Origin: a phage
Length of the DNA stretch: 64,000 nt
Assembly (NCBI GenBank): GCA_029742005.1
Contig: GCA_029742005.1_4113.1
Strand: one strand, 5' to 3'
In this document: positions 7,584-52,107 of the stretch, piece after piece
Numbering within the stretch: the stretch's first letter is position 1
Layout: each line of letters begins with the position of its first letter
The notes under the pieces: generated by a model
The model's database searches: none
The model's input: only the letters and a program-made list of their open reading frames with translations
Told to the model about the DNA's origin: nothing
Translations under genes and position numbers: made by a program

Positions 7584-7922
7584 ATGCTTGAGTTTTTTAA
7601 TTCAGATACAATGCTTAGTATTACTTTGATTTATCTGTTTGGTTTTTTCTTTTATCATGCACTAGTTGTAGTACTATGGTATTTTAAAAAGAAAATCGTT
7701 TTCAAACTGTATCCTGATGGAAACATTTCACTACTTCTTTTCACTATTATCCAAGGTATGTTTGCAATTGTTGGTCTTATCGCACACTTAATTTATTGTG
7801 CTAATCCACAGTTGAACTCAATATCACAATATATTGTATTCCTTGGATTACTAATTTGGGTGCTGATATACTTGTTTAATCTCATCATTAATGGTAGAGC
7901 AAAAATTCGTGGGGACTTCTAA
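7584..7922 (+). CDS. small multi-pass membrane protein, family A
   Basis: RBS GGAGA; hydrophobic; first of seven tandem paralogs. Confidence 0.55.
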   Translation: MLEFFNSDTMLSITLIYLFGFFFYHALVVVLWYFKKKIVFKLYPDGNISLLLFTIIQGMFAIVGLIAHLIYCANPQLNSISQYIVFLGLLIWVLIYLFNLIINGRAKIRGDF

Positions 7923-8269
7923 TGTTTGAATCTTATCTTGAGTTTTTAAAGAGTAGTTCTGTTGCACATTCAATTGCAGGGATTATTCTAACAGGTTATG
8001 TAACATTTTGGGTAGTTATGTTTCTAGGATGGTATTTTAAACGACAATTCTATAAGCGTAATGGTGAAGATTTTATGAATTCTTTCATTAATCAATCGTT
8101 GTTTGCATCAACATTGATAGCATGTATTGTAGCAACACTCACAGGAAAGGTACTGCCAGCATTCTCCGCAGTTTACGGTACATTGGGTATGATATGTGTA
8201 GTTTTTTACTTGACCATTAAACTTTGTTGTGTTATGATTGAACTTCGAAACAAGATACCGGAGGAATGA
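7922..8269 (+). CDS. small multi-pass membrane protein, family A
   Basis: Start overlaps previous stop; C-terminus ELRNKIPEE. Confidence 0.55.
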   Translation: MFESYLEFLKSSSVAHSIAGIILTGYVTFWVVMFLGWYFKRQFYKRNGEDFMNSFINQSLFASTLIACIVATLTGKVLPAFSAVYGTLGMICVVFYLTIKLCCVMIELRNKIPEE

Positions 8270-8604
8270 TGGAATATTTTTTACACTTACTGCCGTGGTA
8301 TATGAAAGTTAGTACTATGTACTATATTCTTAGTGCTGGATTCTACTTTCTGATGTGGTTCTTCAAACGACCAATTTCAGTATTCATCTCTGATAACATG
8401 CTGCAATTAAAATTACACGCATGGTTTTTTATGGCGATGTTTATGCCTATTATTCACTACTCAATGATTAGTAGAGGTTTACGTTCTAATGGTGAACCAA
8501 TTATATTAGTATTCTATTGGGGTTCAACTATTGCATATGTAAGTTTGTTGTTGATCCCAGCCGTTCATAAATTACGTGCTAAAGTTCCTGATGTGAGGTA
8601 CTAA
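8266..8604 (+). CDS. small multi-pass membrane protein, family A
   Basis: ATGA stop/start overlap; C-terminus KLRAKVPDVRY. Confidence 0.55.
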   Translation: MMEYFLHLLPWYMKVSTMYYILSAGFYFLMWFFKRPISVFISDNMLQLKLHAWFFMAMFMPIIHYSMISRGLRSNGEPIILVFYWGSTIAYVSLLLIPAVHKLRAKVPDVRY

Positions 8605-8918
8605 TGGATATCTTAACATTGATTTACACGTTGTATTCATTCTATTTTATTATGTGTTGGGTTGGATTTTTATTTGTACTGAAGATGTTTGATTATGTTG
8701 AAAAACAGATAAAAGAATTTTGTATTCCTTTTATTGGGTCAACCATTATTAGTATTACTTGTTTGTATTATTTGGTATGTGATCCACCTGATGATACAGC
8801 TATGATTGATTTCATGTTATTGCCAACAACTGTTATTTTTTTATGTAGTCTGATGCCACCGATTAGCCGTGGACTAACTGAATTTAGACGCAATCAAAAG
8901 CGTAAACGAGGGATGTGA
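8604..8918 (+). CDS. small multi-pass membrane protein, family A
   Basis: RBS GAGG; C-terminus EFRRNQKRKRGM. Confidence 0.55.
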   Translation: MDILTLIYTLYSFYFIMCWVGFLFVLKMFDYVEKQIKEFCIPFIGSTIISITCLYYLVCDPPDDTAMIDFMLLPTTVIFLCSLMPPISRGLTEFRRNQKRKRGM

Positions 8919-9286
8919 TGGAAATTGCACTTATTATATTAACTGCTATGTTGTTTATTAGTACAATTGTTATTATTGGCAAGTTCTTCTGTGTATCCTT
9001 CTTGGAAACCGTATACGATGAAATTGCTGATGATTATGAATTACATGCGGGATTTTTTACTACGTATTGGATTAGTTTATTACTACTTATCACTGTATGG
9101 ATTTTACATATATTCAAATGGGGTATGGTAGATGGTGATCCAGTACTGGCAATTATCTGTGTAGTGTTTGGTCTACTCGGTGGTGCTGTCCATAATCTGA
9201 TGGTAATTTGGCAAACCGTACAATATGTATTAGTTCCACATTTTCAGAGAATGCACCAAAGCATCAAATACCGCAAACGAGGATAA
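8918..9286 (+). CDS. small multi-pass membrane protein, family A
   Basis: ATG at 8918 after RBS GAGGG (ORF track starts at GTG 8915). Confidence 0.55.
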   Translation: MEIALIILTAMLFISTIVIIGKFFCVSFLETVYDEIADDYELHAGFFTTYWISLLLLITVWILHIFKWGMVDGDPVLAIICVVFGLLGGAVHNLMVIWQTVQYVLVPHFQRMHQSIKYRKRG

Positions 9287-9287
9287 C

Positions 9288-9650
9288 ATGAATAATATTG
9301 AATTATCTTTTATTGGTCAATTAATGGTAATGGCGTATACATTTATCTTCTCACTGAATGCATTCGTGTGCATTGGGAAGTACTTCCATAAGCGACCATT
9401 ATCAAATATATATGATGTAATCCAAAAGAGATATAGTCCAGCATATACTGTGTTGGGTACAGTATTCAATTTTGGTTTTATTGTATTAATAATTGGACTG
9501 TTCACATCCTCTTTGAATACAATAACCTTCGGTCTTATGATATGTTCATTGGTATTAGCCGTAATTATATGTTGTTTAGTACTACACCTTGTGATACTAT
9601 TATATATAAAGATCTCTGAAATCCACCAACGTTTGGGTATGAGGAAATAA
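9288..9650 (+). CDS. small multi-pass membrane protein, family A
   Basis: RBS GAGGA; hydrophobic. Confidence 0.55.
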   Translation: MNNIELSFIGQLMVMAYTFIFSLNAFVCIGKYFHKRPLSNIYDVIQKRYSPAYTVLGTVFNFGFIVLIIGLFTSSLNTITFGLMICSLVLAVIICCLVLHLVILLYIKISEIHQRLGMRK

Positions 9651-9651
9651 T

Positions 9652-10023
9652 ATGAGTTACCGTGAGATATTTTCCATTATTTCAATTATTATGTTCAGTA
9701 CTGGAACACTGGTATGGTTATTATATTTCTTCTGTATTAATCCAGTGTATAATATGTTATGTAATATTAAATCAAGTGCCGGATATATCACTTTTATGGT
9801 CTTTATGGGATATTATTGTCTAAGCATTTTAGGTGTTGTTTTGGTTGTTATATTTGATGTGGGGCCAAATAGTGATGGTATGGAAATACATGAATTAATA
9901 ACCATGTTTGGATGTATGATACCAACAGCACTACTGTTTGTAGCTACTGGTAGTGGATTGATAAAATTATATAATTATTTAAAATCCATTCATAATTCCA
10001 TTCATAATAAGCGTATGTCATAA
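9652..10023 (+). CDS. small multi-pass membrane protein, family A
   Basis: RBS GAGGAA; hydrophobic. Confidence 0.55.
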   Translation: MSYREIFSIISIIMFSTGTLVWLLYFFCINPVYNMLCNIKSSAGYITFMVFMGYYCLSILGVVLVVIFDVGPNSDGMEIHELITMFGCMIPTALLFVATGSGLIKLYNYLKSIHNSIHNKRMS

Positions 10024-10065
10024 TAAAAAATCCAGTACTATTAAGTACTGGATGTATAAGGAGTT

Positions 10066-10728
10066 ATGATGAAATCAAAATTAGGTTTGTTTTATAAAAA
10101 CTATTTTGTTAAACAACGTAAATTTATAAAAAAATATTTCTCTGGTGAGAAGTCTAGTCCTATAATTTTTAAAAGACCAAGTTATAATACTTACTTAGCT
10201 GGTGCTAAACAGTCTAAGAAATTTATTACTCTTTTAAATAAAAACAAAATTAAAGCTTCTTATGTTGAAACGAGAAGAAACTCATCAATAACTCCTGGTG
10301 ATTTTATTGAGTACGGATGTTTCAATATTAAGTATAATGATAATACATACTTTATGGATATTGATTGTAATACATCCAATCTTTTTAACATTGTAGTAAA
10401 TCCATTAAAACAATATAATGTTTATGGTGATTCTATTATCAAATTAATAAAAAACAAAGATGGCTTTGATTTTGAAATAAATGTTTTAGATGATAATTTT
10501 GACGAAGTACCCGTAAACCCTGAAATCTGTGATATTTTAAACAGTTTAAAAGGTAGTACCTACAATATATCATCTGATTTAATGTTTCAGTACTCATTAA
10601 TCCATAAAGATATTGAAAAGTATATTGAATGCTCCAGAATTTTGAATTTTCTCTATGATGAATTTAAAAAGAGTTCTAAAATAACTGCATACACTTTGTA
10701 CAATATTCCTAAAATGGTGAATCTTTAA
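10066..10728 (+). CDS. hypothetical protein
   Basis: RBS AAGGAG; 220 aa; converges on the minus-strand block. Confidence 0.55.
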   Translation: MMKSKLGLFYKNYFVKQRKFIKKYFSGEKSSPIIFKRPSYNTYLAGAKQSKKFITLLNKNKIKASYVETRRNSSITPGDFIEYGCFNIKYNDNTYFMDIDCNTSNLFNIVVNPLKQYNVYGDSIIKLIKNKDGFDFEINVLDDNFDEVPVNPEICDILNSLKGSTYNISSDLMFQYSLIHKDIEKYIECSRILNFLYDEFKKSSKITAYTLYNIPKMVNL

Positions 10729-11132
10729 CAAATACAGTACTGGCAACTCCACCGTCTGTAATATATTGTCCAGTACTGTAAATTTGTATACCATCGGTTA
10801 AGTAAGTTCTGTATAAAGTTGCTGTAACATATACGTTATTCATATTCATCTCTATTGGTAGTACACATTTGGTATAGGCCGACACATCTGTTTGTGTACC
10901 TATACCCAATTGACCTGCGTTATCGCCTGTGTTATTACCAGTTGCGTAAACACCCAATGAAGTTATAATATGATTAGAAAAATATGAATAACCCAAACTC
11001 TTGAGATTCTCTACTGTACAACGTACCATCTGACATAAGGGCAAAAACTGTTGTATCAGATGAAGCTATTTTTGTTACAGAAGGTTGTATGTTCTGTTTT
11101 GATGATGTGATAATTCTTCGAAAGGGTAGCAT
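10709..11132 (-). pseudogene. truncated/frameshifted RCC1-like paralog
   Basis: MLPFRR start after GGAGGA at 11132; frame breaks in 10974-11044; downstream frame has GNNTGDNAGQLGIG; total about 170 aa versus 370-395 aa for paralogs. Confidence 0.4.
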
Positions 11133-11203
11133 TGTATCCTCCAAATGTAAATCGTTATTATATTTAGGACAAAAAATGCCAGTACAAGGCACTGGCATAA
11201 AAT

Positions 11204-12373
11204 CTAAGCAGAAGGCATATCCTTCATCTTAATAAATGAAAATTGTGTACCAGTATTTGTGGTTTGATCAGTAAAATATGAATTACTACCAGCCCAGTAC
11301 AATTCATTATTAACTATACAATATATAACAGAACTCGAACTCTGTGAATACACACGACTTATATTTGATGGTTCTACTCCAGTACTGAACTGAACCGAAC
11401 CCAACTGTGAACTTGGTATCACATCAGTTGGTCTACCTAAACCATTAACACCAGCCCCACCACCACATGTATATACCCCAGTACTATCAGTTGATATATT
11501 AACATAACCATTCCCGGCATTTTCAAATAGTATTTCACTGGGAGCAACACCAAATCCTGTAAGATCTATTTTCCTGAATGTAGTGTAAACAGTAGAACCA
11601 CCAACACCTCTTCCACCATAATCATTAGAACCAGCCATATAGATACTATATCCAGAACTTCCTAAACATAATAACTGTACGTTGTCATATAATATTTGCA
11701 TAGATATAACGTTATCAGGAATACTCAATACCGTAAAAGTAGTTAAAGAAGAACTTCCAATATTACTACCAACCGATGTTCCACATCTGTAGTACTTACC
11801 GCCTTTTATATAATGGAACGATGAACCCCCTAACTTATGTGCTCCTATTGCACTTACCTCAGTATCTATGAGAATGGGAGATACAACTTTGTTATTAACA
11901 CCTAACTCAGATCTACTGTTCATACCGAACCCATATAAACGACCATCTAACATCAATATTAGTGTACTACCGGAAGTACCCGCTGACGTAAATTCTATAT
12001 TCTTTATTTGCGACACGTCAATACCTACAAATAATGAAGTTACTTCAGTCCAGTTAACATATGAACCACTAGCCCCAAAATATCCACCCATGTATAGACC
12101 TGCACAATATAATTTATTATCAACAGTCTTTATTAATGTACCGGATACACACGCCCAAAAATCATCAACTTCATAGGGTACATGTACCCAACCACCTAAT
12201 ACATCACTAGCATCCCCTGTACCTAATTTATAGTTCGAACCAGAACCACGCATGTACATATTCCCTGTACTATAAAGTAATCCGACATGTAATTGACTAC
12301 CATCCAATTTCTTTATTTCGGGAAGAGTTGGTTTAATATTTCCGTACTTTAACATTCTTCCAAAAGGTAACAT
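11204..12373 (-). CDS. RCC1-like repeat (beta-propeller) protein, MLPF family
   Basis: Start MLPFGRMLKYGN after AAAGGAGGAA; G-x-N-x-x-G-x-LG-like repeats. Confidence 0.6.
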   Translation of the reverse strand: MLPFGRMLKYGNIKPTLPEIKKLDGSQLHVGLLYSTGNMYMRGSGSNYKLGTGDASDVLGGWVHVPYEVDDFWACVSGTLIKTVDNKLYCAGLYMGGYFGASGSYVNWTEVTSLFVGIDVSQIKNIEFTSAGTSGSTLILMLDGRLYGFGMNSRSELGVNNKVVSPILIDTEVSAIGAHKLGGSSFHYIKGGKYYRCGTSVGSNIGSSSLTTFTVLSIPDNVISMQILYDNVQLLCLGSSGYSIYMAGSNDYGGRGVGGSTVYTTFRKIDLTGFGVAPSEILFENAGNGYVNISTDSTGVYTCGGGAGVNGLGRPTDVIPSSQLGSVQFSTGVEPSNISRVYSQSSSSVIYCIVNNELYWAGSNSYFTDQTTNTGTQFSFIKMKDMPSA

Positions 12374-12399
12374 AATTCCTCCTTTATTCATTATACTAT

Positions 12400-12437
12400 A
12401 TTTAATACAAAAAGAAAAGCCAGTACAGAGTACTGGC
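12400..12437 (-). terminator. terminator hairpin GCCAGTAC-N3-GTACTGGC with T-run on minus strand
   Basis: Perfect 8-bp stem; minus-strand transcript reads hairpin then TTTTCTTTTT. Confidence 0.55.
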
Positions 12438-12444
12438 CTATATT

Positions 12445-13164
12445 TTAGACTGAATTGTTAGGATAATATCTCCCACGTCCCCATATTATTCGCACAGCAC
12501 CACCACCAGCAGCCGTATAAGAAAAATTATCCCATATACTACCACCACCACCATACATCTTACCAGCACCACCACTACCAGCACCACCATTATATGAACC
12601 ATCGTATCTACCGCCAATACCATTAGCACCTTGAACAATGATACCAGTACCACCACCCGTACCAATGAACGAGGTATTATAGAATGCACCACCACCGCCG
12701 CCGCCGCCAGCACCATTTTCACCAGTGATTGCATCTCCGTTACCACCTTTACCAGTGTAGCCACCAGCACCACCACCAATGACTGCACCACCACTTACAC
12801 CAGCGTTGCCCCCATTACCACCACCATCATTAATAGCGTTAGCAGCTTTCCCACCTAGTCCACCAACCCTATATTCACCAGTGAAGCTAACACATAGTTT
12901 TTCAGTTCCACGATATAAACCGTTTTCAACTGGTGTAGTAGTGTTGGGATGTGTAAGAGAAACACTTAAGTACTCACCACTAGTAACCGGAATATTATTA
13001 CGCCACGATAAGCCGCCACCAGCACCACGTTGACCACCCGGCGAAATAACACATACTGATATTTCGGTAACGCCAGCAGGAACTGTAAATTGTGTTGTTC
13101 CTATTGTCGTGATTAATTGTTCACCATGTGGCTTATATTCAATTTTATTCCCTCCTTTATTCAT
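12445..13164 (-). CDS. glycine-rich repeat protein (possible fibre-like structural protein)
   Basis: 239 aa, long GGxGG runs in C-terminal two thirds; same upstream module as RCC1 genes. Confidence 0.55.
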   Translation of the reverse strand: MNKGGNKIEYKPHGEQLITTIGTTQFTVPAGVTEISVCVISPGGQRGAGGGLSWRNNIPVTSGEYLSVSLTHPNTTTPVENGLYRGTEKLCVSFTGEYRVGGLGGKAANAINDGGGNGGNAGVSGGAVIGGGAGGYTGKGGNGDAITGENGAGGGGGGGAFYNTSFIGTGGGTGIIVQGANGIGGRYDGSYNGGAGSGGAGKMYGGGGSIWDNFSYTAAGGGAVRIIWGRGRYYPNNSV

Positions 13165-13180
13165 TATAATATATTTAATA

Positions 13181-13211
13181 CAAAAAAGAAAAGCCAGTAC
13201 TCTGTACTGGC
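13181..13211 (-). terminator. terminator hairpin GCCAGTAC-N3-GTACTGGC with T-run
   Basis: Same hairpin as 12419-12437. Confidence 0.55.
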
Positions 13212-13218
13212 TTTTACA

Positions 13219-14409
13219 TTACAATTGTCTAGGTGTATCCAGTACATATCTATTTGTACGAGGACCACCATCATCATGCGTTCCGGTTGAATATATATTT
13301 TTCATATCAGCAGTTAGGAAAGTACGATACGAACCGCGATATATTTTAATTTTATCATACATAGAATATGTTATTCCTGACGGCAATGGACATGCAGTAA
13401 ATTTACCAATGGTAACATTAGAACCAACACCTAATGTACCAGCATAACCACTCGCATTTAAACCAGTTGCATATACACCTGTACTCGTAACTAGTATACT
13501 AGATTGTGATGCATATCCAGTATGGATTGAATAATAAGTTCCTGATGGTAATGTAGTACTATTATTCCCTAATACTGCTAGTGCTGTACTATTCGTAGTG
13601 TTATTACCCCATGCCCCATTATTAGCTAATCCACCAACTAGAAACTGACGTGCTCCTGTATTTGGATTCTCCACTAAAGCACTGACAGCACCAAATGAAC
13701 AAACAGTATATTGTAATGTTTTTGTATATGTGGTACTTGGCTTATACAAAGTATATTCATTAAATGGTGTCCATGTGGTACTAGTACTTATGCCAGATGT
13801 ACTACCACCAATATATAAATTATTTTGTGTATCAAAAAACATTGCACAGTAATTTGTTGACTGTATTTGTGCAATATCTACATCTGGTGTTACCGCTTTA
13901 ACAAATGAACCATCTGATATTTGATAAGTAGTTCCTGTACCATCTGCGAATTGTCTAGCACTATTCCACCCTGTACTCCATATTGTATTATTATCCATTA
14001 AGAAAGTAAACCATGTAGTACCTGCATACATCTGTTTAATTGAAGTACTTGAACTTTGTTTGTACAATTTTTCAATATATTGGTTATAACTTAAAAATGA
14101 TGTAGTACTAGTTTCTAAACCAATATGACTACCATATCCACAATAAAAATAATTTAAGTCCTTATCTTGAACTAACAAAGTTCCTTGTGTCATCCAGCAA
14201 TCTTTGACATTTTCTCTAATTAATGTCCACGACCTTACTGCATTATTATTTCCTCTACCAAACTTCCCAAAACTATTACTGCCTCGTGCGTATAGTTGAC
14301 CGTCGGTATAAAGTACAACAACCTCAGTATCAGTTGGTATTATTTTCTTAATTTGAAGAGGTTCAGGTGTGATATTCCCATAATCAAACATTCTAACAAA
14401 AGGTAACAT
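13219..14409 (-). CDS. RCC1-like repeat protein, MLPF family
   Basis: MLPFVRMFDYGN; RBS AAGGAGGAAAT; repeats such as YARGSNSFGKFGRGNN. Confidence 0.6.
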   Translation of the reverse strand: MLPFVRMFDYGNITPEPLQIKKIIPTDTEVVVLYTDGQLYARGSNSFGKFGRGNNNAVRSWTLIRENVKDCWMTQGTLLVQDKDLNYFYCGYGSHIGLETSTTSFLSYNQYIEKLYKQSSSTSIKQMYAGTTWFTFLMDNNTIWSTGWNSARQFADGTGTTYQISDGSFVKAVTPDVDIAQIQSTNYCAMFFDTQNNLYIGGSTSGISTSTTWTPFNEYTLYKPSTTYTKTLQYTVCSFGAVSALVENPNTGARQFLVGGLANNGAWGNNTTNSTALAVLGNNSTTLPSGTYYSIHTGYASQSSILVTSTGVYATGLNASGYAGTLGVGSNVTIGKFTACPLPSGITYSMYDKIKIYRGSYRTFLTADMKNIYSTGTHDDGGPRTNRYVLDTPRQL

Positions 14410-14478
14410 ATTTCCTCCTTATTCATTATACTATATTTAATACAAATAAGAATGCCAGTATCAAGTACTGGCATTATG

Positions 14479-15588
14479 TTATTTTGGTAAATCAATTTTA
14501 GTAAAGACTGCAACATCCTCGATTGCACCTGGAATGGCGTAATACGATCCAGTACTATACACATCTCCATTTTTGGTTAATATCGATGTCAAACCATCAC
14601 TAAAAAGAACATCCCTAATCTCACTAACTTCAACGGGTAATTGTAAATTGGTAGCACTATATATAGCACCAGTTTGAGAATTGTTTAATCCCAAACCACG
14701 GTTCGCCCCAACACCCTTCTGATATGTACTAGTAATTACCATTTGTGTAGCAGTATTTAAGGCAGGTGAATTCGTCATAAACAACGGAGAACTATTAGGC
14801 AAAGTACTTACAGGAACGGCACGGAATGTAGTCGTGCCTGAACTAAGAAAGTTTGGAGTTTGACCACATACGAAATATGATGTACCATTATAGTAATTGA
14901 ATGCATTACCACCAATGGCTGCATCGATTACACCAGAACTACGCAATCCCCAAGTGTTAATTTGTGTTTGGTTCCCCGTACCATGCTGTCCACTACTATT
15001 CCATCCAGAACTATATAGCTTATTATCTAATGTAAGATACATACTATCATTCGCATTGGTCATTACTTTACGAACGTTCGTAGCACATTGAGTTAATGTG
15101 TAAATTGATGAGGAACCAATACCCAAAGAACCACGATATCCATTATCTCCTGCACCATAGAGTACTGAATTAGTGCTAAGTACAAATATTAAACCATTTG
15201 TACATACAATATTAGCAATTTCACTTACTGGTATAGCATTGGTAAACCAATTAGTCCTTTCAACTAATACAGTACTGTAAGAAGTAGTTGTAGAAGATGA
15301 GAACCAGTACGTTTGACCTGATGTCCATATCGTATTATCATTTTTAATAATAACAAGTGTACGATCACCCACGAAAAAATTAGAAACATCTGCACTTACT
15401 AATATCCATGAAGATACCGTGTTGGTATTACCATTTCCAGATTCACCACCTTGATTTCTACCTATGTAATATAAATCATGTGAATCAGTCAATAAGAATT
15501 GACCTTGTGTAGAAGCACCAACTTTAATTATATTTTTAGGACCAGGTACAATATTTCCGTACTTAACCATTCTTGCAAAAGGTAACAT
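14479..15588 (-). CDS. RCC1-like repeat protein, MLPF family
   Basis: MLPFARMVKYGN start; 369 aa. Confidence 0.6.
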   Translation of the reverse strand: MLPFARMVKYGNIVPGPKNIIKVGASTQGQFLLTDSHDLYYIGRNQGGESGNGNTNTVSSWILVSADVSNFFVGDRTLVIIKNDNTIWTSGQTYWFSSSTTTSYSTVLVERTNWFTNAIPVSEIANIVCTNGLIFVLSTNSVLYGAGDNGYRGSLGIGSSSIYTLTQCATNVRKVMTNANDSMYLTLDNKLYSSGWNSSGQHGTGNQTQINTWGLRSSGVIDAAIGGNAFNYYNGTSYFVCGQTPNFLSSGTTTFRAVPVSTLPNSSPLFMTNSPALNTATQMVITSTYQKGVGANRGLGLNNSQTGAIYSATNLQLPVEVSEIRDVLFSDGLTSILTKNGDVYSTGSYYAIPGAIEDVAVFTKIDLPK

Positions 15589-15598
15589 AATTCTCTCC

Positions 15599-16729
15599 TT
15601 AATTTAATAATGCCCCTGGCAAATCCACTTTGACGAATTGTGCATATGCTGAGGAATTTTGATCAAAGTTTGGTCCCAATCCATAAAATGAGCTAATGCC
15701 GTCTTCATTTGTGTATATGATATAAACGTTCTTTACATCATTTCCGCATATAAATCGAATGTCTTTCGTTTGTGTTCCCGCTGGAACATTACGAAGGTTC
15801 ACAACGCCATTACTTGCATTGTTATCAGCCGACGCAATTGGTAATTGATTTTGACCATATTGACCACGCATATTTTTTGCATCTAAACCAAACACAGTAT
15901 TTGATACCGCACCAACTTTCAAAAATGAACCAAAACTATTATTGAATGACTTTGGAAATGTACCACTATAAACACTTCTCCCATCTGATAATACCGCTGA
16001 ACTGAATTTCCCGTTATTCGATATGGCAAATTCATTGTAAGGAAGTGTACCCATTTTGGTATATACAGAATATGAATTAGTGGAAGTATTATCAATAATC
16101 TTATTACCATTATATCCAATACCATACTGGTATCCGTCTGCATCTTGAACTATACACAAAGGACCACTTGGGGTTTGTGTCAACGAAACAACACGTTCAA
16201 CTTGTATATCACCAAATGTATTTCTTCGCCATGTTCTATCTATTATAGTACTAGTATTACCCAAAGATAATTCCACACTATATAATAGATTGTTTTCAGT
16301 AAAAATGGCAACATAATATGCGTGGTTAATAACTTGCTTCATCCCAGCATCAATAACTTCCTGTGGAATATGATCAGTAACATCCAACCAATCAAGGTTA
16401 GATGATGCAATATCTGGAGTACTGAATTTGTCAAATCTAGTTGAGCCACAAACTAGCACTCTATCATCATTTGTCAAAGCCACTGTGCTAGTCTGCATAT
16501 TAGAACTGAATGATTTAACATTACTAATGTTAGACTTGTACCAACCCTTATCAGCAGCACCCACCGTGAATCCGGTTCCCATTGATCCACTTGTACTTGT
16601 ACCATAAGCCCACATCTCACCACTATATGTTAGTGCCATACAGTGGCTTCCATTTGCTTGGAAATCCTTTATACCAGTGGGAGCAACCACTGTATTCCCA
16701 TAATCAAACATTCTAACAAAAGGTAACAT
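15599..16729 (-). CDS. RCC1-like repeat protein, MLPF family
   Basis: MLPFVRMFDYGN after GGAGAT; track start MEILV is the SD region. Confidence 0.6.
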   Translation of the reverse strand: MLPFVRMFDYGNTVVAPTGIKDFQANGSHCMALTYSGEMWAYGTSTSGSMGTGFTVGAADKGWYKSNISNVKSFSSNMQTSTVALTNDDRVLVCGSTRFDKFSTPDIASSNLDWLDVTDHIPQEVIDAGMKQVINHAYYVAIFTENNLLYSVELSLGNTSTIIDRTWRRNTFGDIQVERVVSLTQTPSGPLCIVQDADGYQYGIGYNGNKIIDNTSTNSYSVYTKMGTLPYNEFAISNNGKFSSAVLSDGRSVYSGTFPKSFNNSFGSFLKVGAVSNTVFGLDAKNMRGQYGQNQLPIASADNNASNGVVNLRNVPAGTQTKDIRFICGNDVKNVYIIYTNEDGISSFYGLGPNFDQNSSAYAQFVKVDLPGALLN

Positions 16730-16804
16730 AACTAAAATCTCCATATAATAATTATAATGTATTTACAAAAAAATACCAGTACATATTTCAGTACTGGCAT
16801 TTTG

Positions 16805-17932
16805 TTAAAATGGTAAATCTATTTGTTTAGTAAATGTCATACTTAGTGGTATTGAACACATTGACGCATTTCTCCCATTTAAATTGGACGGAGGCTGTCC
16901 GTTCATCCATATATTGGTATCGTCGTAAAAAGTACTCCACCACGTAGAACCTTCCGTATGAAGATTAATATTAAAATCAGGGAATTGACATTCTTGAAAA
17001 ACATCAAAAAACGGGATAGATGATACACTACTACCAGTAAATGGAGTGTAGCCTGTTGACATTAATTTATTAGTATCCGAATTTACCAAAAAGATAACAG
17101 AACCAGTATTGAATGGTGAATATTTTGGATACAAATTACTCATATCACCGATAGTGAAGTTGATATCAAATATTTTACTATGCTTACCAGTTCCTGAAAG
17201 TGTAGTACCAGTTACATATATTTTATTATCAGTTGTTCCCATGACAAACCCAATTCCAAATCCCACACAAAATGTTATGTCATATGGTATATTATCAAAG
17301 AGTGGGACAAACGTTGTGGCATCACCAGTAGTAGCTTTTATTTGATAGCTATTATTTGCCCCAGCACCCCAAACAGTACCATTTGATTTCACTTTGAATA
17401 TACTATCTCCTATGTAGTGACCGTATATACTATCAACTTCAGTATCAAGTTTTGTCCATTGTGATACAAAGTTTTTATGCCCTAAACCTAAACAACCATT
17501 GCGGTTTAGTCCCCTGCCGTATAGTGTACCATCATTCATCAGTACAAATGTTGTGTATCCACAAAGCATTTTTTTGATTTGTGTAACATCAATACCAGCA
17601 AAAAAACCACTCCAATCAGTATATCCTTGTTGGATTGCGTTTGATTTGGTGAATGACATAGTTGGTCCTGAACCATATATTTTACCATCTTTTATAATCA
17701 CTGAATAAGAACCTAACCATACATCTTGAACATTCTCACTAATTGTTTTCAATTCACCATATGCAGAGAATGGAGTACTTTGCCCTGCACTATATGATGA
17801 ATCTTCACCGTGTGCATATAATGTTCCATTTTCTGTTAGAATCATTTCCAAATATACACAATTGACAATTTTCTTTATTTTATTAACTTCTATTTTATTT
17901 CCGTACGCTAACATCCTTGCAAAAGGTAACAT
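16805..17932 (-). CDS. RCC1-like repeat protein, MLPF family
   Basis: MLPFARMLAYGN; YGRGLNRNGCLGLGH repeat. Confidence 0.6.
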   Translation of the reverse strand: MLPFARMLAYGNKIEVNKIKKIVNCVYLEMILTENGTLYAHGEDSSYSAGQSTPFSAYGELKTISENVQDVWLGSYSVIIKDGKIYGSGPTMSFTKSNAIQQGYTDWSGFFAGIDVTQIKKMLCGYTTFVLMNDGTLYGRGLNRNGCLGLGHKNFVSQWTKLDTEVDSIYGHYIGDSIFKVKSNGTVWGAGANNSYQIKATTGDATTFVPLFDNIPYDITFCVGFGIGFVMGTTDNKIYVTGTTLSGTGKHSKIFDINFTIGDMSNLYPKYSPFNTGSVIFLVNSDTNKLMSTGYTPFTGSSVSSIPFFDVFQECQFPDFNINLHTEGSTWWSTFYDDTNIWMNGQPPSNLNGRNASMCSIPLSMTFTKQIDLPF

Positions 17933-18007
17933 AACTAAAATCTCCATATAATAATTATAATGTATTTACAAAAAAATACCAGCACATATTTCAGTACTGG
18001 TATAATG

Positions 18008-19180
18008 TTATGGTAAAATAATAGCTTGTAACGAACTCATACCCAATGTTGGAACACTCGCCTGTGGTGCTGGTGCATTCACTTTTGGTGATGAAACCGC
18101 ATAAGTCATTCCTGTACCCAAATCTGGATCAAAAACTACAGAACAATAATCCCCATTGTATATAAGTCCATTAGTATATCCTTGTACACTTTGAATGCAT
18201 TTCGTGAACGTACCAATGTCAGTAGTGGCATTTATTAAGTTCCTCCCACGGTAGCCACATGTGTATATGAAATTATCATCACCTATGTACATACTCGCAT
18301 TCCCAGAAGAACTACATAGATAAGACATATAAGCACGCATGTTTTTAGGAGCAACTGACAATGTACCAGCATAGAATTTATTATTCATACCCGAAATATC
18401 ACCATCACCCAAAGCACCAAAACTCCCCCAACCAGTACCATAATATCTCTTATCACTCAAGAATATAATACAGTTGTTATTACACATCTTGACTTGATAT
18501 ATCAATGAAGGATCAACCCCAGGGAATGATTCAGTGTATGTTAGAACAGCCAGATCAGTACTGGCATTACATTGATGATATGTATTAGTACCAGCGGACA
18601 ATATTGTACCATCAACTAATAGAATCCTCGAAGTGCCAGTACCAGCAATACAAGCAACAGCATTACCTGTATATATTTTTCTGAAAGTAAAGAAACCAAC
18701 AGTCTTACTCCCCTGTCCACTCCAACCAGTATTATCAACACCACATGCCCATACTGAACCATCTTGCATGATCATCATTACACCATAGCGTTCTATCGAA
18801 ATATAGACAATCTTCGTAGTATCAACTGCACTAAATCTAGAAGTTATATCAGTCCAAACCTTTACACTCACCGCCGTCGCACCGAAAGTAGGATCTTCCC
18901 CTGCTATCATTATCCTACCATTGTTAGTCAGATACATTGTCTGACTATAACCAGTACTACAAAACTTAACACTATCAGTCTCTGGAACTTTTAACCACTC
19001 GTTGTAACGTGTTACGTTAGTGTTATTATCTAACTGATAATAGTTATTCATCCCAGATACATATAACACACCATCCTTTATTAAACTATAAGTCGCACTA
19101 TAGTCACTACAGGTATAACGTGTACCCACAGGTCGCTCAACGACGTTCCCATATTCTAACATCCTTACAAAAGGCAACAT
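18008..19180 (-). CDS. RCC1-like repeat protein, MLPF family
   Basis: MLPFVRMLEYGN; no clear SD; start uncertain. Confidence 0.5.
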   Translation of the reverse strand: MLPFVRMLEYGNVVERPVGTRYTCSDYSATYSLIKDGVLYVSGMNNYYQLDNNTNVTRYNEWLKVPETDSVKFCSTGYSQTMYLTNNGRIMIAGEDPTFGATAVSVKVWTDITSRFSAVDTTKIVYISIERYGVMMIMQDGSVWACGVDNTGWSGQGSKTVGFFTFRKIYTGNAVACIAGTGTSRILLVDGTILSAGTNTYHQCNASTDLAVLTYTESFPGVDPSLIYQVKMCNNNCIIFLSDKRYYGTGWGSFGALGDGDISGMNNKFYAGTLSVAPKNMRAYMSYLCSSSGNASMYIGDDNFIYTCGYRGRNLINATTDIGTFTKCIQSVQGYTNGLIYNGDYCSVVFDPDLGTGMTYAVSSPKVNAPAPQASVPTLGMSSLQAIILP

Positions 19181-19221
19181 AACTAAATACCAGAACATAT
19201 TTCAGTACTGGTATCGTAGCG

Positions 19222-20364
19222 TTAAAATGGCATCTTAACCTCTTTATATACTAATATATCACCGGATAAACCAGGAAACGCAGAACCATTACCACATGCA
19301 TATATAGTACTGTCATTCCACGCCGCTTGATGGTAATTACCTATAGTACATTTATAATTCGATAAATCAGTCACACCAGGTGTTAGTACATAATATACTG
19401 GTCCACTAGGTAAATTAAAATCAAATCTACCAAAGTAGTTCAAACCAGATGAATAGGACTTGTCATTAGCAAATATTACAGTACCATCTTCTGTAAAAGA
19501 ACTGTGAGAAATGTCTTTGAGATTGTTCACAACACCAGACGGTATTGATGTATTCAACGTAAAGGACGTCAATGGTGCTGCACTCGGTGTGTTGTTCGCC
19601 GTGTAACCATAATATGCATAACCAGCTACATATACACTCGAATCTGAACAAAATAAAAATGCACTCCTATAACCCAACCTAATACTCTCTATAGTCTTAC
19701 TAAAAGTAACTTTAGTAAAGGTAGGAACTAAACCACTATATCCTACCCCACATGTACCAAAATCATTCTTCCCAGTACTGTACAATTCGTTATTATTTGT
19801 AAGGTAAAATGACGCAGCAGCACCGCTATCTAAAGTACTGTAAACGTCTTTTACATTACTCGCAATCAATTTAAATGCACTCAATACGGTAGCCGAACCA
19901 TTGTTAGACAGCGTTGTTGAATCCGTGCCTTGTCCTATTGTATATAAATCTCCAGTACTAGTCAAAACAAATATACCATTAGTCGCCATAACAATTCTGT
20001 CATTCTTTAAATTAAATGAACTAAAAAGTGTACTTATATCAGTAAAGGTAGTATAACGCCCACTCTGCCCTATACTCGATAAATTCCCACTCAAATAAAC
20101 CTTATTATCATTACCAACAGCTACATAACAACCCCACCCAGCATATATCTGATCAATGCCTTGTATCGGTATTTGTAACCATTCACTACCAGTTACCGAA
20201 GCAGTACTTCCAGTTCCAAGTTCACCAGAGTTATTAGCTCCGAATACATATAAATTCCCACTATCCGATAAAACAACTGTATTACCAACTCCAGTTTTTA
20301 TATCCTTGATACCATTCTTAGGAGCAACATTCCCATAATCAAACATTCTAACAAAAGGTAACAT
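19222..20364 (-). CDS. RCC1-like repeat protein, MLPF family
   Basis: MLPFVRMFDYGN; RBS GGAGGGAAAT. Confidence 0.6.
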   Translation of the reverse strand: MLPFVRMFDYGNVAPKNGIKDIKTGVGNTVVLSDSGNLYVFGANNSGELGTGSTASVTGSEWLQIPIQGIDQIYAGWGCYVAVGNDNKVYLSGNLSSIGQSGRYTTFTDISTLFSSFNLKNDRIVMATNGIFVLTSTGDLYTIGQGTDSTTLSNNGSATVLSAFKLIASNVKDVYSTLDSGAAASFYLTNNNELYSTGKNDFGTCGVGYSGLVPTFTKVTFSKTIESIRLGYRSAFLFCSDSSVYVAGYAYYGYTANNTPSAAPLTSFTLNTSIPSGVVNNLKDISHSSFTEDGTVIFANDKSYSSGLNYFGRFDFNLPSGPVYYVLTPGVTDLSNYKCTIGNYHQAAWNDSTIYACGNGSAFPGLSGDILVYKEVKMPF

Positions 20365-20436
20365 ATTTCCCTCCTTTATTCATTATACTATATTTAATCA
20401 AAAATAAAAGCCAGTACTTGAGTACTGGCATAGTAT

Positions 20437-21564
20437 TCAAAAAGGTAAATCAATTTGCTTAGTAATAATAGTATCTAACGGTATTGAACACAATGAGAAA
20501 TTCTTTCCACCCGTATTTTCAGGATTATATCCATTCATCCATACATTATTACCTTCGTAAAATGTATTCCAGTATAAAGCCCCACTATATCGTGTATTCG
20601 AATTGAACGATGGAAAGTTGAATTCTTGGAATGATGTAAAATATGGAATGGAACTTGAACTACTTCCCGTAAATGGGGTATACCCAGTTGCTATTAGTTT
20701 GTTTGTATCTGCATTAATTAAAAATACAACACTAGTCGAATAGTCCAACGAATCAGGATGATATATATTACTCATATCACCTATAGTAAAACCAACATCA
20801 AAAACTTTACTATGTGCACCACTACCAGCAAAAGTAGTTCCAGTTGCATATATTTTATTATCAGATGTTATCATTACAAAACCAACACCAGAAACAAAAC
20901 TGCATTTTATATCATAAGATATATCATCAAACAACGGAACAAATGTGGTTGCATCACCCGATGTTGCTTTAACTTGAAAGCTGTTATTTGAACCTGAACC
21001 ATATACAGTTCCATCGTTTTTAATCTTAAACAATGTATCGCCAAGGTAACCGCCAAATATATTATCCACATTAGTGTCAAGTACAGTCCACGCTGAAACA
21101 TAATTTTTATGTCCTAAACCTAATGCACCACTTCGATTCCATCCTCTTCCATAAAGTGTTCCGTCTTTCATTAATATAAATGCTGTATAACCACATAACA
21201 TTTTTTTAATTTGGGTAACATCTATACCAGTGAAATACACAGCCCAGTCAGTATATCCTTGTTGGAAAGTATCAGAATTCGTGAATGCATATGTTGGACC
21301 TGAACCATATATTTTATCACCTTTAATAACAACGGAAAACAATCCTAACCATAAGTCATCAACTTCAGTTGTGATTTGTTGAACTGCTCCTAACGATACA
21401 AACTTTGTACTTAAACCCGCATTATAGTTTGAATCTTCACCGTGTGCATATACAGTGCCATCTTGCATTAGAAACATTTCAAGAGTGCCACTAACAACAC
21501 TTTTCTTTATATTATTAACTTCGATTATATTCCCATAATCAAACATTCTAACAAAAGGTAACAT
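20437..21564 (-). CDS. RCC1-like repeat protein, MLPF family
   Basis: MLPFVRMFDYGN; YGRGWNRSGALGLGH repeat; closest paralog of 16805-17932. Confidence 0.6.
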   Translation of the reverse strand: MLPFVRMFDYGNIIEVNNIKKSVVSGTLEMFLMQDGTVYAHGEDSNYNAGLSTKFVSLGAVQQITTEVDDLWLGLFSVVIKGDKIYGSGPTYAFTNSDTFQQGYTDWAVYFTGIDVTQIKKMLCGYTAFILMKDGTLYGRGWNRSGALGLGHKNYVSAWTVLDTNVDNIFGGYLGDTLFKIKNDGTVYGSGSNNSFQVKATSGDATTFVPLFDDISYDIKCSFVSGVGFVMITSDNKIYATGTTFAGSGAHSKVFDVGFTIGDMSNIYHPDSLDYSTSVVFLINADTNKLIATGYTPFTGSSSSSIPYFTSFQEFNFPSFNSNTRYSGALYWNTFYEGNNVWMNGYNPENTGGKNFSLCSIPLDTIITKQIDLPF

Positions 21565-21636
21565 AATTCCCTCCTTTATTCATTATACTTTATTTAATAC
21601 AAATAAGAATTCCTGTATCGAGTACTGGCATTCAAT

Positions 21637-22785
21637 TTATTGTAAAAAGGACATATCTACTTCTGTATAACTAAGAATGTTTTGACCAGCAATTCCACCC
21701 ATTACTACTATTGCATACCCACAATAATATAATTTCCCAGTGTCCGTAAGTATAAGTGAACCAGAAGGTGTTCTTACCAAATTACACGAACTATTAAAAG
21801 AAGTATACGAAGGAGTATAGGAGTACTGATTAATATTATTACCAACACCTAATTGACCACCCCTATTCGAACCAGATGCATAAAGTACTTCATCTGCTTT
21901 GACAATATGTGATGCCATGTTAGCAACACATGCATATACACCATATACCCCTGTACTCAATAATGTAGGAGTCTTGTATTGAATATCAGTACTAGTAGAT
22001 GTTCCACCTGTGCCAAATTCATTACCATATTGTGCTCCGTACTGCTTCCCACATGCGTACAAATTATTATCCGATTTGATAAAAAATGTACTCTGATAAC
22101 TTACATCAAAATCTATAACATCCGAAGAAATCATCGTTACCCCAGTAATCGAAGTTTGATTACCAGTACCCAACTGGTAGTAATAGTTAAAACCACAACC
22201 CCATAAAGTATTATCTTCTTTTAGGTATATGTTACCAACTGCCTTTTTAACCGAAGTTATAGTATCTACCCTTTTGAATGTGTTAAAAGAATTAATGTTT
22301 GTACCATCACCAAATGATGATAGGTTCGAGTTATTGTTAACTCCACAACAATACAACGTACCATCGTTTGTTATCAAATTCACCTTCATATCATTAAAAC
22401 TACTCATGTATTTTATATCAGAAACATTAATACCACCTGATGTTATCCATGTAGTACAGTCCGTCCATAACGTCTTCCTATCAGTTACCCCAGTAAATGC
22501 CTTCGTGTTACCAGTGATAAACACTTTACCAGTACCCTTTTCTTCATACAATTGACAATCACTACTGTTATCTTCCAATAAAACCCTCTGTACATTCTCT
22601 GCACAAAGAATAAATTTACTCGATGCTACACCTGTTCCAGTACCCCAATTCGTCGCAGAAGATGCATACAACTTATGTGTTAGTGTATCATGCAAATACA
22701 TAGAACCACTAGAATATATTTTAAAACGCCCAGAGTTGGTAGGTGCTTCATTCCCATAATCAAACATTCTAACAAAAGGTAACAT
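21637..22785 (-). CDS. RCC1-like repeat protein, MLPF family
   Basis: MLPFVRMFDYGN after AAAGGAGGAAAT; track start MNKGGN covers the SD. Confidence 0.6.
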   Translation of the reverse strand: MLPFVRMFDYGNEAPTNSGRFKIYSSGSMYLHDTLTHKLYASSATNWGTGTGVASSKFILCAENVQRVLLEDNSSDCQLYEEKGTGKVFITGNTKAFTGVTDRKTLWTDCTTWITSGGINVSDIKYMSSFNDMKVNLITNDGTLYCCGVNNNSNLSSFGDGTNINSFNTFKRVDTITSVKKAVGNIYLKEDNTLWGCGFNYYYQLGTGNQTSITGVTMISSDVIDFDVSYQSTFFIKSDNNLYACGKQYGAQYGNEFGTGGTSTSTDIQYKTPTLLSTGVYGVYACVANMASHIVKADEVLYASGSNRGGQLGVGNNINQYSYTPSYTSFNSSCNLVRTPSGSLILTDTGKLYYCGYAIVVMGGIAGQNILSYTEVDMSFLQ

Positions 22786-22827
22786 ATTTCCTCCTTTATT
22801 CATTATATCATATTTACCCCATAACCC

Positions 22828-45330: not shown

Positions 45331-45561
45331 TGCGTAAAAGGATTTAGTACTGAATCAAAAAAAAGTCAAGGCATTTTTTTCATGCGTCGAAAAAAAACTT
45401 AACCAGTACACTATCACGCATGAAATAATTTTGACCAGTGATTATATCTCTTGCCCTAAAGGGCGGGTAATGTCTTAGCGAGCATATTGGAGTTCTTGGG
45501 TAGGACAAAATTATTTCTTGTGCTATAATTATATCGAATGTAATCATAGAAAGGAGTCCCT

Positions 45562-45759
45562 ATGCGTATTTTAACTGAAGAAGAGCACAACCACACACTC
45601 ATATCCAACATGGCATATATCCTACATATGTCACATATCCGTGGTATTGCATATAAGCGTGAATTGGTTATGAAACTTTTCATAGGAACTAACTATCAAG
45701 AAAAGTATATCGAACTATACTTACAAGAATTACGAAGGGACATAAAAGGAAGACGATGA
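45562..45759 (+). CDS. small protein, LGTNYQ-motif family C
   Basis: RBS AAAGGAG; ..FIGTNYQEKY.. Confidence 0.55.
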   Translation: MRILTEEEHNHTLISNMAYILHMSHIRGIAYKRELVMKLFIGTNYQEKYIELYLQELRRDIKGRR

Positions 45760-51240: not shown

Positions 51241-51241
51241 T

Positions 51242-51815: not shown

Positions 51816-51827
51816 GAGTACTGATAT

Positions 51828-52043: not shown

Positions 52044-52107
52044 CAGTACTTGACGGAGCTTTTCATTACTGATATAGTGCATCAACGTTAATCATAGGGT
52101 ACAGATT

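What the first reader, a model, noticed from the sequence alone, without database searches (positions are those of the whole stretch)
10709..22803. Minus-strand array of about ten paralogous RCC1-like beta-propeller proteins sharing the N-terminal motif MLPF[VA]RM[FL]xYGN
Ten consecutive genes on one strand (nine intact, one decayed) encode 370-395 aa proteins with RCC1-type glycine-rich blade repeats. Their bodies are strongly diverged, yet the first 12 residues are nearly invariant. Such a conserved N-terminal tag on variable propellers could be a shared virion-attachment or capsid-targeting/processing segment, with the variable part acting as interchangeable binding modules. Each gene has its own terminator hairpin and upstream module, so the family looks like a cassette-wise amplified set.
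Basis: partly seen in the sequence, partly recalled or inferred. Interest (0 to 1): 0.78.

Follow-up and report, generated by a model that had tools for sequence, protein, structure and literature searches.

The report
Shared address tag on phage binding-module cassettes
A giant E. coli phage carries a row of very different sugar- or protein-binding modules that all start with the same 12-amino-acid tag. The tag most likely plugs them into the virus particle and lets whole genes be swapped between phages like cassettes.

Summary
Window 10709-22803 (minus strand) comes from an Asteriusvirus-type (121Q/PBECO4/phAPEC6) jumbo coliphage.

The first 12 residues are 84% identical between paralogs; the bodies are 21% identical. 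The array and its presence in virions are already published. What I could not find in the literature is the tag's behaviour:

- M-[L/I]-P-F-x-R-[M/I/L]-x-x-Y-G-N also heads Kelch propellers, ConA/LamG lectin-like domains and a tail-fibre-type glycine-rich domain across RaK2-like jumbo phages (118 non-redundant ORFs).
- It is modelled as a free, disordered tail on two different folds.
- Its invariant residues use several synonymous codons, so selection acts on the protein.
- Tag peptides appear in the published peptide list of purified CBB virions, so the tag is not cleaved off like a T4 capsid-targeting sequence.

Homology blocks between related phages begin and end in the conserved joint (terminator hairpin, promoter-like box, ribosome-binding site, tag).

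Best reading: a retained virion-docking tag on interchangeable, probably surface-exposed binding modules that are shuffled by recombination. The docking site and the location on the particle are inferred, not shown.

The parts
21637..22785 (-). RCC1-like propeller gene 1 (382 aa), tag MLPFVRMFDYGN
20437..21564 (-). RCC1-like propeller gene 2 (375 aa), tag MLPFVRMFDYGN; 63% identical to gene 5
19222..20364 (-). RCC1-like propeller gene 3 (380 aa), tag MLPFVRMFDYGN. This is the copy that was modelled. No relative above 60% identity in the phage records; a 97%-identical metagenome protein carries a different tag.
18008..19180 (-). RCC1-like propeller gene 4 (390 aa), tag MLPFVRMLEYGN; a hairpin lies directly before the ATG and there is no promoter or ribosome-binding-site box
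16805..17932 (-). RCC1-like propeller gene 5 (375 aa), tag MLPFARMLAYGN
15599..16729 (-). RCC1-like propeller gene 6 (376 aa), tag MLPFVRMFDYGN
14479..15588 (-). RCC1-like propeller gene 7 (369 aa), tag MLPFARMVKYGN; only 10 nt after gene 6
13219..14409 (-). RCC1-like propeller gene 8 (396 aa), tag MLPFVRMFDYGN
12445..13164 (-). Glycine-rich non-RCC1 cassette (phrog_4474). Its fold matches the receptor-binding part of the cyanophage Pam3 tail fibre. It has the same upstream module as its neighbours, but its 36-nt tag is precisely deleted.
11204..12373 (-). RCC1-like propeller gene 9 (389 aa), tag MLPFGRMLKYGN; 99% identical block shared with phAPEC6 gp010
10709..11134 (-). Decayed tenth RCC1 cassette: degenerate tag, frameshift, internal deletion, last blades only
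12374..12444 (-). Example of the conserved joint: hairpin 12420-12436, T-run, box TAAATATAGTATAATGAATAAAGGAGG. Equivalent joints lie at 22786-22816, 21565-21636, 20365-20436, 17933-18007, 16730-16804, 14410-14478, 13165-13218 and 11135-11203.
22750..22785 (-). Example of the 36-nt tag-coding segment ATGTTACCTTTTGTTAGAATGTTTGATTATGGGAAT. It is identical in five genes, whose ATGs are at 22785, 21564, 20364, 16729 and 14409.

Best explanation
The region is a cassette array of accessory virion proteins. Each cassette has two parts. The first is a conserved joint: the terminator hairpin of the previous gene, a promoter-like AT-rich box, a ribosome-binding site, and 36 nt encoding the tag M-[L/I]-P-F-x-R-[M/I/L]-x-x-Y-G-N. 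The second is a highly variable beta-rich binding module. In this window the modules are RCC1-like seven-bladed propellers plus one tail-fibre-type glycine-rich domain. In related phages they are also Kelch propellers and ConA/LamG lectin-like domains.

The tag is a flexible N-terminal peptide that stays on the mature protein. It most likely docks every module onto one common site of the particle, so that many different binding specificities can be loaded on the same socket. Because the joint is the only DNA shared by all cassettes, homologous recombination within it adds, removes, reorders and imports cassettes between co-infecting phages.

The modules are most likely exposed on the outside of the particle. 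These phages have unassigned hexon-centre decoration densities and hair-like fibres. There the modules would act as accessory adhesins for host or environmental surface structures.

Shown: the anatomy, the folds, the tag on unrelated folds, protein-level conservation of the tag, retention of the tag in one related phage, virion association in three related phages, and the position of the breakpoints.
Inferred: that the tag is what docks the proteins, where it docks, the outside location and the adhesin role.
For: Tag versus body: 84% against 21% identity.

The tag is a separate module:
- Residues 1-14 of the propeller model have pLDDT below 50 and no secondary structure. The propeller starts at residue 19; pTM is 0.84 and TM-score to UVR8 is 0.80.
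- The tag is likewise unstructured on the glycine-rich fold (pLDDT 91.5 overall, 47 for residues 1-10).

The same tag sits on other folds:
- Laminin_G_3, Kelch (E 1e-32), Gly_rich_2 and unknown bodies.
- Clustering the bodies without the tag gave 11 groups.
- One protein is a 667-aa tag + RCC1 + Kelch fusion.

Specificity and distribution:
- All 48 matches of a degenerate tag DNA pattern in IMG/VR are genuine ORF starts. Eight of the nine contigs are 348-378 kb RaK2-like genomes; the ninth is a 109 kb fragment.
- A metagenome scan added more arrays.

Protein-level selection: P3, F4 and Y10 are invariant, and R6, G11 and N12 are present in 90-99% of 118 non-redundant ORFs. They use several synonymous codons (CCT 68/CCA 45; TAT 62/TAC 56; GGG 63/GGA 31/GGT 16).

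Virion association (published data):
- phAPEC6 gp003, 005, 006, 007, 009 and 010 were found by virion mass spectrometry (PMC7247149).
- In CBB, 7 of 9 checked tagged proteins (536, 537, 548, 549, 551, 552, 553) are among the 55 of 554 proteins detected in CsCl-purified virions (PMC5259590).
- GAP32 gp001 was also detected.

Tag retained: the peptides LLQYGNK (CBB_553 residues 7-13) and YANVIVEYATK (CBB_548 residues 10-20) are in the raw CBB peptide list.

Cassette exchange:
- Megablast blocks against five related arrays end 20-48 nt after a tag ATG and begin 6-89 nt before one. They are not collinear between genomes.
- A body that is 97% identical carries a different tag in a metagenome protein.
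- Array size varies: at least 12 tag-associated genes are annotated in G17 and at least 14 in vB_Ec-M-J.

Outside location:
- In Pam3 gp24 the N-terminal segment is the baseplate-docking element (PMC9608196).
- Some homologs are fused to fn3 domains.
- All bodies are lectin-like or propeller binding scaffolds.
- 121Q and phAPEC6 have unassigned hexon-centre decoration and fibres.
Against: - No structure or experiment shows the tag bound to anything.
- A 12-residue anchor on a monomeric globular protein is unusual for phage appendages.
- The RCC1 paralogs gave only 1-4 peptides each in phAPEC6, and none was flagged in the low-purity proteome of fENko-Kae01.
- CBB has whiskers but no RCC1 genes, and GAP32 has tagged proteins but no reported hairs, so tagged proteins cannot simply be equated with the hairs.
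- Retention of the tag was checked in one phage (CBB) and for two non-RCC1 proteins only.
- The phage lineage has a T4-type head module with a gp21-like protease and an inner body, so an internal location is not excluded.
- Within a genome the tags are homogenised at the DNA level (five identical 36-mers). Part of the conservation is therefore concerted evolution.
Confidence: 0.6

Rival explanations
1. The tag is the RaK2-lineage counterpart of the T4 capsid-targeting sequence. It would direct the proteins into the prohead core, so that they end up inside the head (inner body) and are ejected into the cell. There they might act as variable inhibitors of host defences or as DNA organisers.
For: The architecture matches the T4 capsid-targeting sequence: a 10-19-residue leader at the extreme N-terminus of unrelated proteins, which is sufficient to package even beta-galactosidase or GFP (PMC9026906). 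The lineage has a T4-type major capsid protein, scaffold and gp21-like protease, and an inner body. The phAPEC6 authors proposed RCC1-like proteins as inner-body candidates. The locus is hypervariable between near-identical phages, as expected for an arms-race locus.
Against: - Tag peptides are present in mature CBB virions, whereas T4 leaders are removed.
- No conserved Glu or other cleavage motif lies in or after the tag.
- Peptide counts are low (1-4; 3-17% coverage), against several other virion proteins with up to 70% coverage. This fits poorly with a bulk inner-body component.
- The bodies are acidic (pI 4.7-6.7 for 8 of 9).
- The body folds are lectin-like, and one is a tail-fibre receptor-binding fold.
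- A rigid 40 kDa propeller would have to unfold to pass through the tail tube.
Confidence: 0.2
2. The conserved start has no protein function. It is kept alike only because the promoter, ribosome-binding site and first codons form one expression and recombination unit that is homogenised by gene conversion.
For: Five genes share an identical 36-nt start together with a near-identical upstream box. Breakpoints fall in this joint. Tags are more alike within a genome than between genomes.
Against: - The key residues are invariant or nearly so across genera whose DNA has diverged, and they are written with different synonymous codons.
- In CBB the upstream DNA differs between cassettes while the peptide is kept.
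- The conserved stretch stops exactly at N12 in every fold class.
Confidence: 0.07
3. The N-terminal strand is simply the closing ('Velcro') strand of the propeller and is conserved for folding.
For: RCC1-type propellers close their last blade with N- and C-terminal strands (established knowledge). The paralogs also share a C-terminal ..DLPF-like end.
Against: In the model the tag is outside the propeller and disordered, and the first strand starts at residue 19. The same tag heads non-propeller folds.
Confidence: 0.03
4. The proteins are true 'regulators of chromosome condensation' or DNA-condensation proteins, as annotated in GenBank.
For: Database names. The PHROG category is 'DNA, RNA and nucleotide metabolism'.
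Against: The name comes from fold similarity only. Bacteria have no Ran or nucleosomes (established knowledge). The proteins are mostly acidic. They are virion components and hypervariable.
Confidence: 0.03

Closest known systems
RCC1-like gene arrays of Asteriusvirus phages (121Q_234-248, PBECO4, phAPEC6 gp001-gp010)
   Same: It is the same locus. Blocks are 88-99% identical, the position next to a strand switch is the same, and the proteins were detected in virions by mass spectrometry.
   Different: This window has its own cassette set. Copy 20364 has no relative above 60% identity in any phage record, and copy 17932 has no megablast counterpart in the five arrays compared. The window also carries a tag-less glycine-rich gene. 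The papers describe the copies as RCC1 or 'DNA condensation' paralogs. I found no mention of the shared tag or of its presence on other folds in the searchable library.
T4 capsid-targeting sequences on internal proteins IPI, IPII, IPIII and Alt
   Same: A short leader at the very N-terminus of unrelated, non-essential and poorly conserved virion proteins. T4-related phages carry other proteins with similar leaders.
   Different: The T4 leader is cleaved off by gp21 and the proteins lie inside the head. Here the tag is retained and has no conserved cleavage motif. The bodies are large lectin-like scaffolds rather than small basic proteins.
Modular receptor-binding proteins with a conserved N-terminal anchor and exchangeable distal domains (for example Pam3 gp24, tail fibres and tailspikes in general)
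   Same: A conserved N-terminal docking element with a variable binding part, and recombination at the junction. One cassette has the Pam3 gp24 receptor-binding fold.
   Different: Known anchors are folded, usually trimerising domains of tens to hundreds of residues. Here the anchor is a 12-residue unstructured peptide on modules that are modelled as single globular domains. About ten different modules share it in one genome.
Adenovirus fibre N-terminal tail motif binding the penton base (own knowledge, not tested here)
   Same: A short conserved N-terminal peptide that plugs a variable receptor-binding protein into a capsid protein.
   Different: The virus lineage is unrelated, the fibre is trimeric, and there are one or two fibre genes rather than a cassette array.

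Membership tests
RCC1-like domain (seven-bladed beta-propeller) superfamily | RCC1 repeat signatures in profile searches | tested here: met
   RCC1_2 (PF13540) is above its curated cut-off in 7 of 9 paralogs. PF25390 scores E 1e-7 to 1e-30 in all nine, but below its cut-off of 150 bits. phrog_4219 scores E 1e-55 to 1e-95.
RCC1-like domain (seven-bladed beta-propeller) superfamily | Seven-bladed propeller fold | tested here: met
   AlphaFold2 model with pTM 0.84. Foldseek against PDB: UVR8 E 1e-20 with TM-score 0.80; RPGR, RCC1 and HERC2 RCC1-like domains also match. Only copy 20364 was modelled.
RCC1 proper (Ran exchange factor, chromatin binding, 'chromosome condensation') | Ran-GEF activity and nucleosome or DNA binding | not testable with these tools
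   The host has no Ran or histones (established knowledge). The paralogs are mostly acidic. The GenBank name reflects the fold only.
T4-type capsid-targeting-sequence proteins | Short leader at the extreme N-terminus shared by unrelated bodies | tested here: met
T4-type capsid-targeting-sequence proteins | Leader removed by the prohead protease in the mature virion | tested here: not met
   The tag-derived peptides LLQYGNK and YANVIVEYATK are in the CBB virion peptide list. No conserved Glu lies in or after the tag. This was checked only for two CBB proteins.
T4-type capsid-targeting-sequence proteins | Location inside the head and ejection into the host | not testable with these tools
   Published proteomes give presence in virions but not position.
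Modular phage receptor-binding proteins (N-terminal anchor plus exchangeable binding domain) | Conserved N-terminus, variable distal part, mosaic breakpoints at the junction | tested here: met
Modular phage receptor-binding proteins (N-terminal anchor plus exchangeable binding domain) | Folded, oligomerising anchor domain; fibrous or spike architecture | tested here: not met
   The tag is 12 residues long and unstructured, and the bodies are modelled as compact single domains. Oligomeric state was not testable.
Modular phage receptor-binding proteins (N-terminal anchor plus exchangeable binding domain) | Binding to a host receptor | not testable with these tools
   Only fold-based inference is available: lectin-like, propeller and Pam3-fibre-like folds.
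Glycine-rich domain family (Pfam PF21722; Pam3 gp24-type TNF-like plus polyglycine domain), for gene 12445-13164 | Profile match and fold match | tested here: met

The most novel reading that the evidence does not exclude
Large phages may use a lineage-specific N-terminal 'address code'. A peptide of about a dozen residues would be enough to load any folded module onto one socket of the virion, and its coding DNA would double as the recombination site for exchanging modules. RaK2-like phages use MLPFxRMxxYGN. The same glycine-rich and LamG-like bodies in a phiTE-like 150 kb phage and in other large phages start instead with M-[L/I/F]-E-[L/M]-[L/M], which suggests parallel systems. If so, the tag is a natural, portable virion-display handle, and the 'RCC1 region' is the accessory host-range locus of these phages.
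Probability: 0.35. Interest if true: 0.75.

Novelty: new variant of a known kind. Interest (0 to 1): 0.55.

Why it matters
- It would replace a misleading annotation ('regulator of chromosome condensation', 'DNA condensation protein') that is carried in dozens of jumbo-phage genomes.
- It would explain why this locus is the most variable part of otherwise near-identical therapeutic coliphages.
- It points to a 12-residue peptide that could serve as a handle to display or load foreign proteins on jumbo-phage particles.
- It gives a concrete way to identify the unassigned decoration or hair densities on 121Q, phAPEC6 and CBB: look for the socket that binds the tag.
- The window contains a natural tag-deletion allele of one cassette, which is a ready-made control.

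Tried and rejected
- Velcro-strand idea: rejected by the models and by the tag on non-propeller folds.
- DNA-condensation reading: rejected on charge, low abundance and variability.
- Sigma-70 promoter scan: no enrichment (74 found, 76.5 expected), so I do not call the conserved box a sigma-70 promoter.
- Fixed-loop hairpin pattern: found nothing because loop lengths vary. A variable-gap pattern found 9 matches against 0.4 expected.
- Peptide-level data for phAPEC6 and fENko-Kae01: no usable supplements are held. The Kae01 proteome came from ultrafiltered lysate with 220 proteins, so I gave it little weight.
- High-resolution structures: the phiKp24 capsid paper and the phiTE atlas do not mention such proteins.
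- PDB sequence searches for the glycine-rich and LamG-like bodies found nothing useful. Only the fold comparison worked.
- A search for 'MLPF' with 'phage' in the paper library gave no relevant paper.
- Enzymatic or fibre domains behind the tag in metagenomes: none found; all bodies are beta-rich binding scaffolds or unknown.
- The apparently ORF-poor stretch 25-51 kb is just densely packed small genes.
- Co-folding the tag with virion proteins was not possible: only single chains from the window can be submitted.

Full report
**Origin and anatomy**

The window comes from an Asteriusvirus-type jumbo coliphage (the 121Q/PBECO4/phAPEC6 group). Megablast of 10709-22803 hits 37 such records at 80-99% identity, but in no record does a single continuous match cover 80% of the query.

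On the minus strand there are nine intact genes of 369-396 codons. Their true start is the ATG of M-L-P-F. The longer ORF calls (MNKGGNMLPF, MEILVMLPF) read through the ribosome-binding site AAAGGAGG. All nine give RCC1-type profile hits. A model of copy 20364 has pTM 0.84 and superposes on UVR8, RPGR and RCC1 with a TM-score of about 0.8, so it is a seven-bladed RCC1-like propeller.

Two further members complete the array:
- A decayed copy at 10709-11134, with a degenerate tag, a frameshift and only the last blades.

Residues 1-12 are 84% identical on average, against 21% for the bodies. Eighteen relatives aligned together keep M1, P3, F4, R6, Y10 and N12 invariant.

Between genes lies a recurring joint. 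It has a hairpin CCAGTAC..GTACTGG followed by a T-run: clean at 7 junctions, degenerate at 2, absent at 1. Terminator-like sites number 15 against 5.6 expected. Then comes a 27-nt box TAAATATAGTATAATGAATAAAGGAGG, found five times, only in the array, with none expected by chance. Five genes share an identical 36-nt tag-coding segment.

**What is already known**

The phAPEC6 paper reports eleven RCC1-like proteins. It lists gp003, 005, 006, 007, 009 and 010 in the virion proteome with 1-4 peptides each, and speculates on a role in DNA organisation or the inner body (PMC7247149). These genes are the orthologous array.

The CBB paper notes multiple copies in 121Q and PBECO4, and that GAP32 gp001 is a virion protein. 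A 2026 genome paper notes that 'chromosome condensation regulators' are among the few proteins that differ strongly between near-identical phages. So the array, its variability and its virion association are not new.

**What appears to be new: the tag is an independent module**

In related genera the same start heads proteins that are not RCC1-like:
- GAP32_002 and Serratia phage BF gp372 (phrog_6011, 'virion structural protein').
- Xanthomonas phage XbC2_582 to 585.
- fENko-Kae01 515c, 523c and 525c.
- All seven genes CBB_548 to 554, plus CBB_536 and 537.

Pfam assigns these bodies to Laminin_G_3/ConA-like lectin domains, Kelch propellers (E down to 1e-32) and Gly_rich_2. Others are unknown. 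Clustering of the bodies without the tag gives 11 groups, and one protein is a tag-RCC1-Kelch fusion.

A degenerate DNA pattern for the tag found 48 sites in IMG/VR. Every one is the start of a real ORF, and all lie in nine contigs: eight 348-378 kb RaK2-like genomes (121Q, BF, GAP32, CBB and metagenomic relatives) and one 109 kb fragment. A metagenome scan added more arrays, beside a score of obvious chance hits.

Over 118 non-redundant ORFs the logo is M-[L/I]-P-F-x-R-[M/I/L]-x-x-Y-G-N. P3, F4 and Y10 are invariant; R6, G11 and N12 are present in 90-99%. These residues are written with several synonymous codons, which shows selection on the peptide and not only on the DNA.

In both AlphaFold models the tag is a low-confidence, unstructured tail in front of a confident domain. 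This holds for the propeller and for the glycine-rich protein (pLDDT 91.5).

**Virion association and tag retention**

In CBB, 55 of 554 proteins were detected in CsCl-purified virions. Seven of the nine tagged proteins I checked are among them, with 2-8 peptides and 9.5-50.7% coverage. My own rough calculation puts the chance of this at about 3e-6.

The raw peptide table of that study contains LLQYGNK (CBB_553 residues 7-13, preceded by R) and YANVIVEYATK (CBB_548 residues 10-20, preceded by K). The tag is therefore present in mature virion protein. T4 capsid-targeting leaders, in contrast, are removed by gp21. No conserved Glu or other cleavage motif follows the tag.

**Cassette exchange**

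I compared the array with those of phAPEC6, 121Q, CMSTMSU, vB_Ec-M-J and G17. The right ends of homology blocks fall 20-48 nt after a tag ATG (the tag is 36 nt long), and the left ends fall 6-89 nt before one. The blocks sit in different orders and neighbourhoods in different genomes.

Further signs of exchange:
- Copy 20364 has no relative above 60% identity in any phage record. A metagenome protein is 97% identical in its body, yet has a different tag (MLPFARILEYAN).
- Array size varies: at least 12 tag-associated genes are annotated in G17 and at least 14 in vB_Ec-M-J.

The joint is thus the recombination substrate. The paralogs are old (about 20% identity) and are shuffled rather than recently amplified.

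**A natural tag deletion**

The glycine-rich gene in the window has the usual hairpin, box and ribosome-binding site, but the 36 tag nucleotides are missing (...AAAGGAGGGAAT|AAAATTGAATAT...). The phAPEC6 and 121Q orthologs read MLPFGRMVKYGN-KIEYKP....

All 18 phage records that span this junction are 31-36 nt longer there. A metagenome protein starts with the same tag-less MNKGGNKIEYKPHGEQ, so the allele is real and circulates. GGRAAT microhomology between the ribosome-binding-site region and the Y-G-N codons could explain the deletion; this is my inference.

**Inside or outside?**

All other bodies are lectin-like or propeller binding scaffolds. The RCC1 paralogs are mostly acidic and rich in Ser, Thr and Asn. 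121Q and phAPEC6 have an unassigned decoration protein at each hexon centre and long fibres on head and sheath. I therefore favour external display.

An internal, uncleaved targeting role cannot be excluded. The lineage has a T4-type head module and an inner body. However, the low peptide counts argue against the propellers being a bulk inner-body component.

**Verdict**

The finding is an already known locus. The feature that appears undescribed is a retained 12-residue N-terminal address tag, shared by unrelated binding folds across a whole jumbo-phage lineage, whose coding DNA is also the cassette-exchange joint. The docking site, the location and the adhesin function are inferences that simple experiments could settle.

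Noticed in passing
window 12445-13164 (junction at about 13146-13150): The glycine-rich cassette has lost exactly its 36-nt tag and its ATG. All 18 phage records spanning the junction keep the tag. A metagenome protein (P0016) has the same tag-less start. The only possible in-frame starts are the ATG inside TATAATG or an ATT seven nt after the ribosome-binding site.
   Followed up: yes
L076:459-1109 and L076:8001-8693 (phiTE-like 150 kb E. coli contig); proteins P0019-P0053: Homologs of the glycine-rich body and of the LamG-like 'LDIDF..IGST' body in other large phages start with a different shared leader, M-[L/I/F/N]-E-[L/M]-[L/M] (32 of 120 glycine-rich homologs). This suggests a parallel, lineage-specific N-terminal tag system.
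   Followed up: partly
window 45500-52050, + strand: About 30 tandem, tightly abutting small ORFs of 65-90 aa. [quoted passage not shown] 2017.
   Followed up: no
window 7584-10023, + strand: Seven tandem ORFs of 104-123 aa encoding hydrophobic, membrane-like paralogs, convergent on the tagged array. CBB shows the same neighbourhood (CBB_543-547 'putative membrane protein' next to CBB_548-554).
   Followed up: partly
L001 (phAPEC6 MK817115) locus coordinates about 18600-20700, minus strand: The GenBank record lacks two genes of the array. One is an intact RCC1 paralog (ortholog of window gene 13219-14409). The other is the glycine-rich gene, for which gp004 is called in a wrong frame. Their products could therefore not be found in the published proteome search.
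   Followed up: partly
L026 (CBB 350196-355464), L002 (GAP32 301-2436), L003 (BF), L005 (fENko-Kae01): In several genera the tagged array lies directly next to the terminal repeat or at the end of the linear genome map.
   Followed up: no
window 10032-10051: The same palindromic hairpin core CCAGTAC..GTACTGG also lies between two + strand genes outside the array. It is therefore a general terminator-type element of this phage and not specific to the cassettes.
   Followed up: no
L014 minus strand, ORF starting at locus position 4199 on the reverse strand (667 aa): A single tagged protein that fuses an RCC1-like propeller to a Kelch propeller.
   Followed up: no
window RCC1 paralogs, C-terminal ends: Most paralogs end in a weakly conserved ..[VI]D[LM]P[FK] motif, which forms the last strand of the model. 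It resembles the LPF of the N-terminal tag. The significance is unknown.
   Followed up: no
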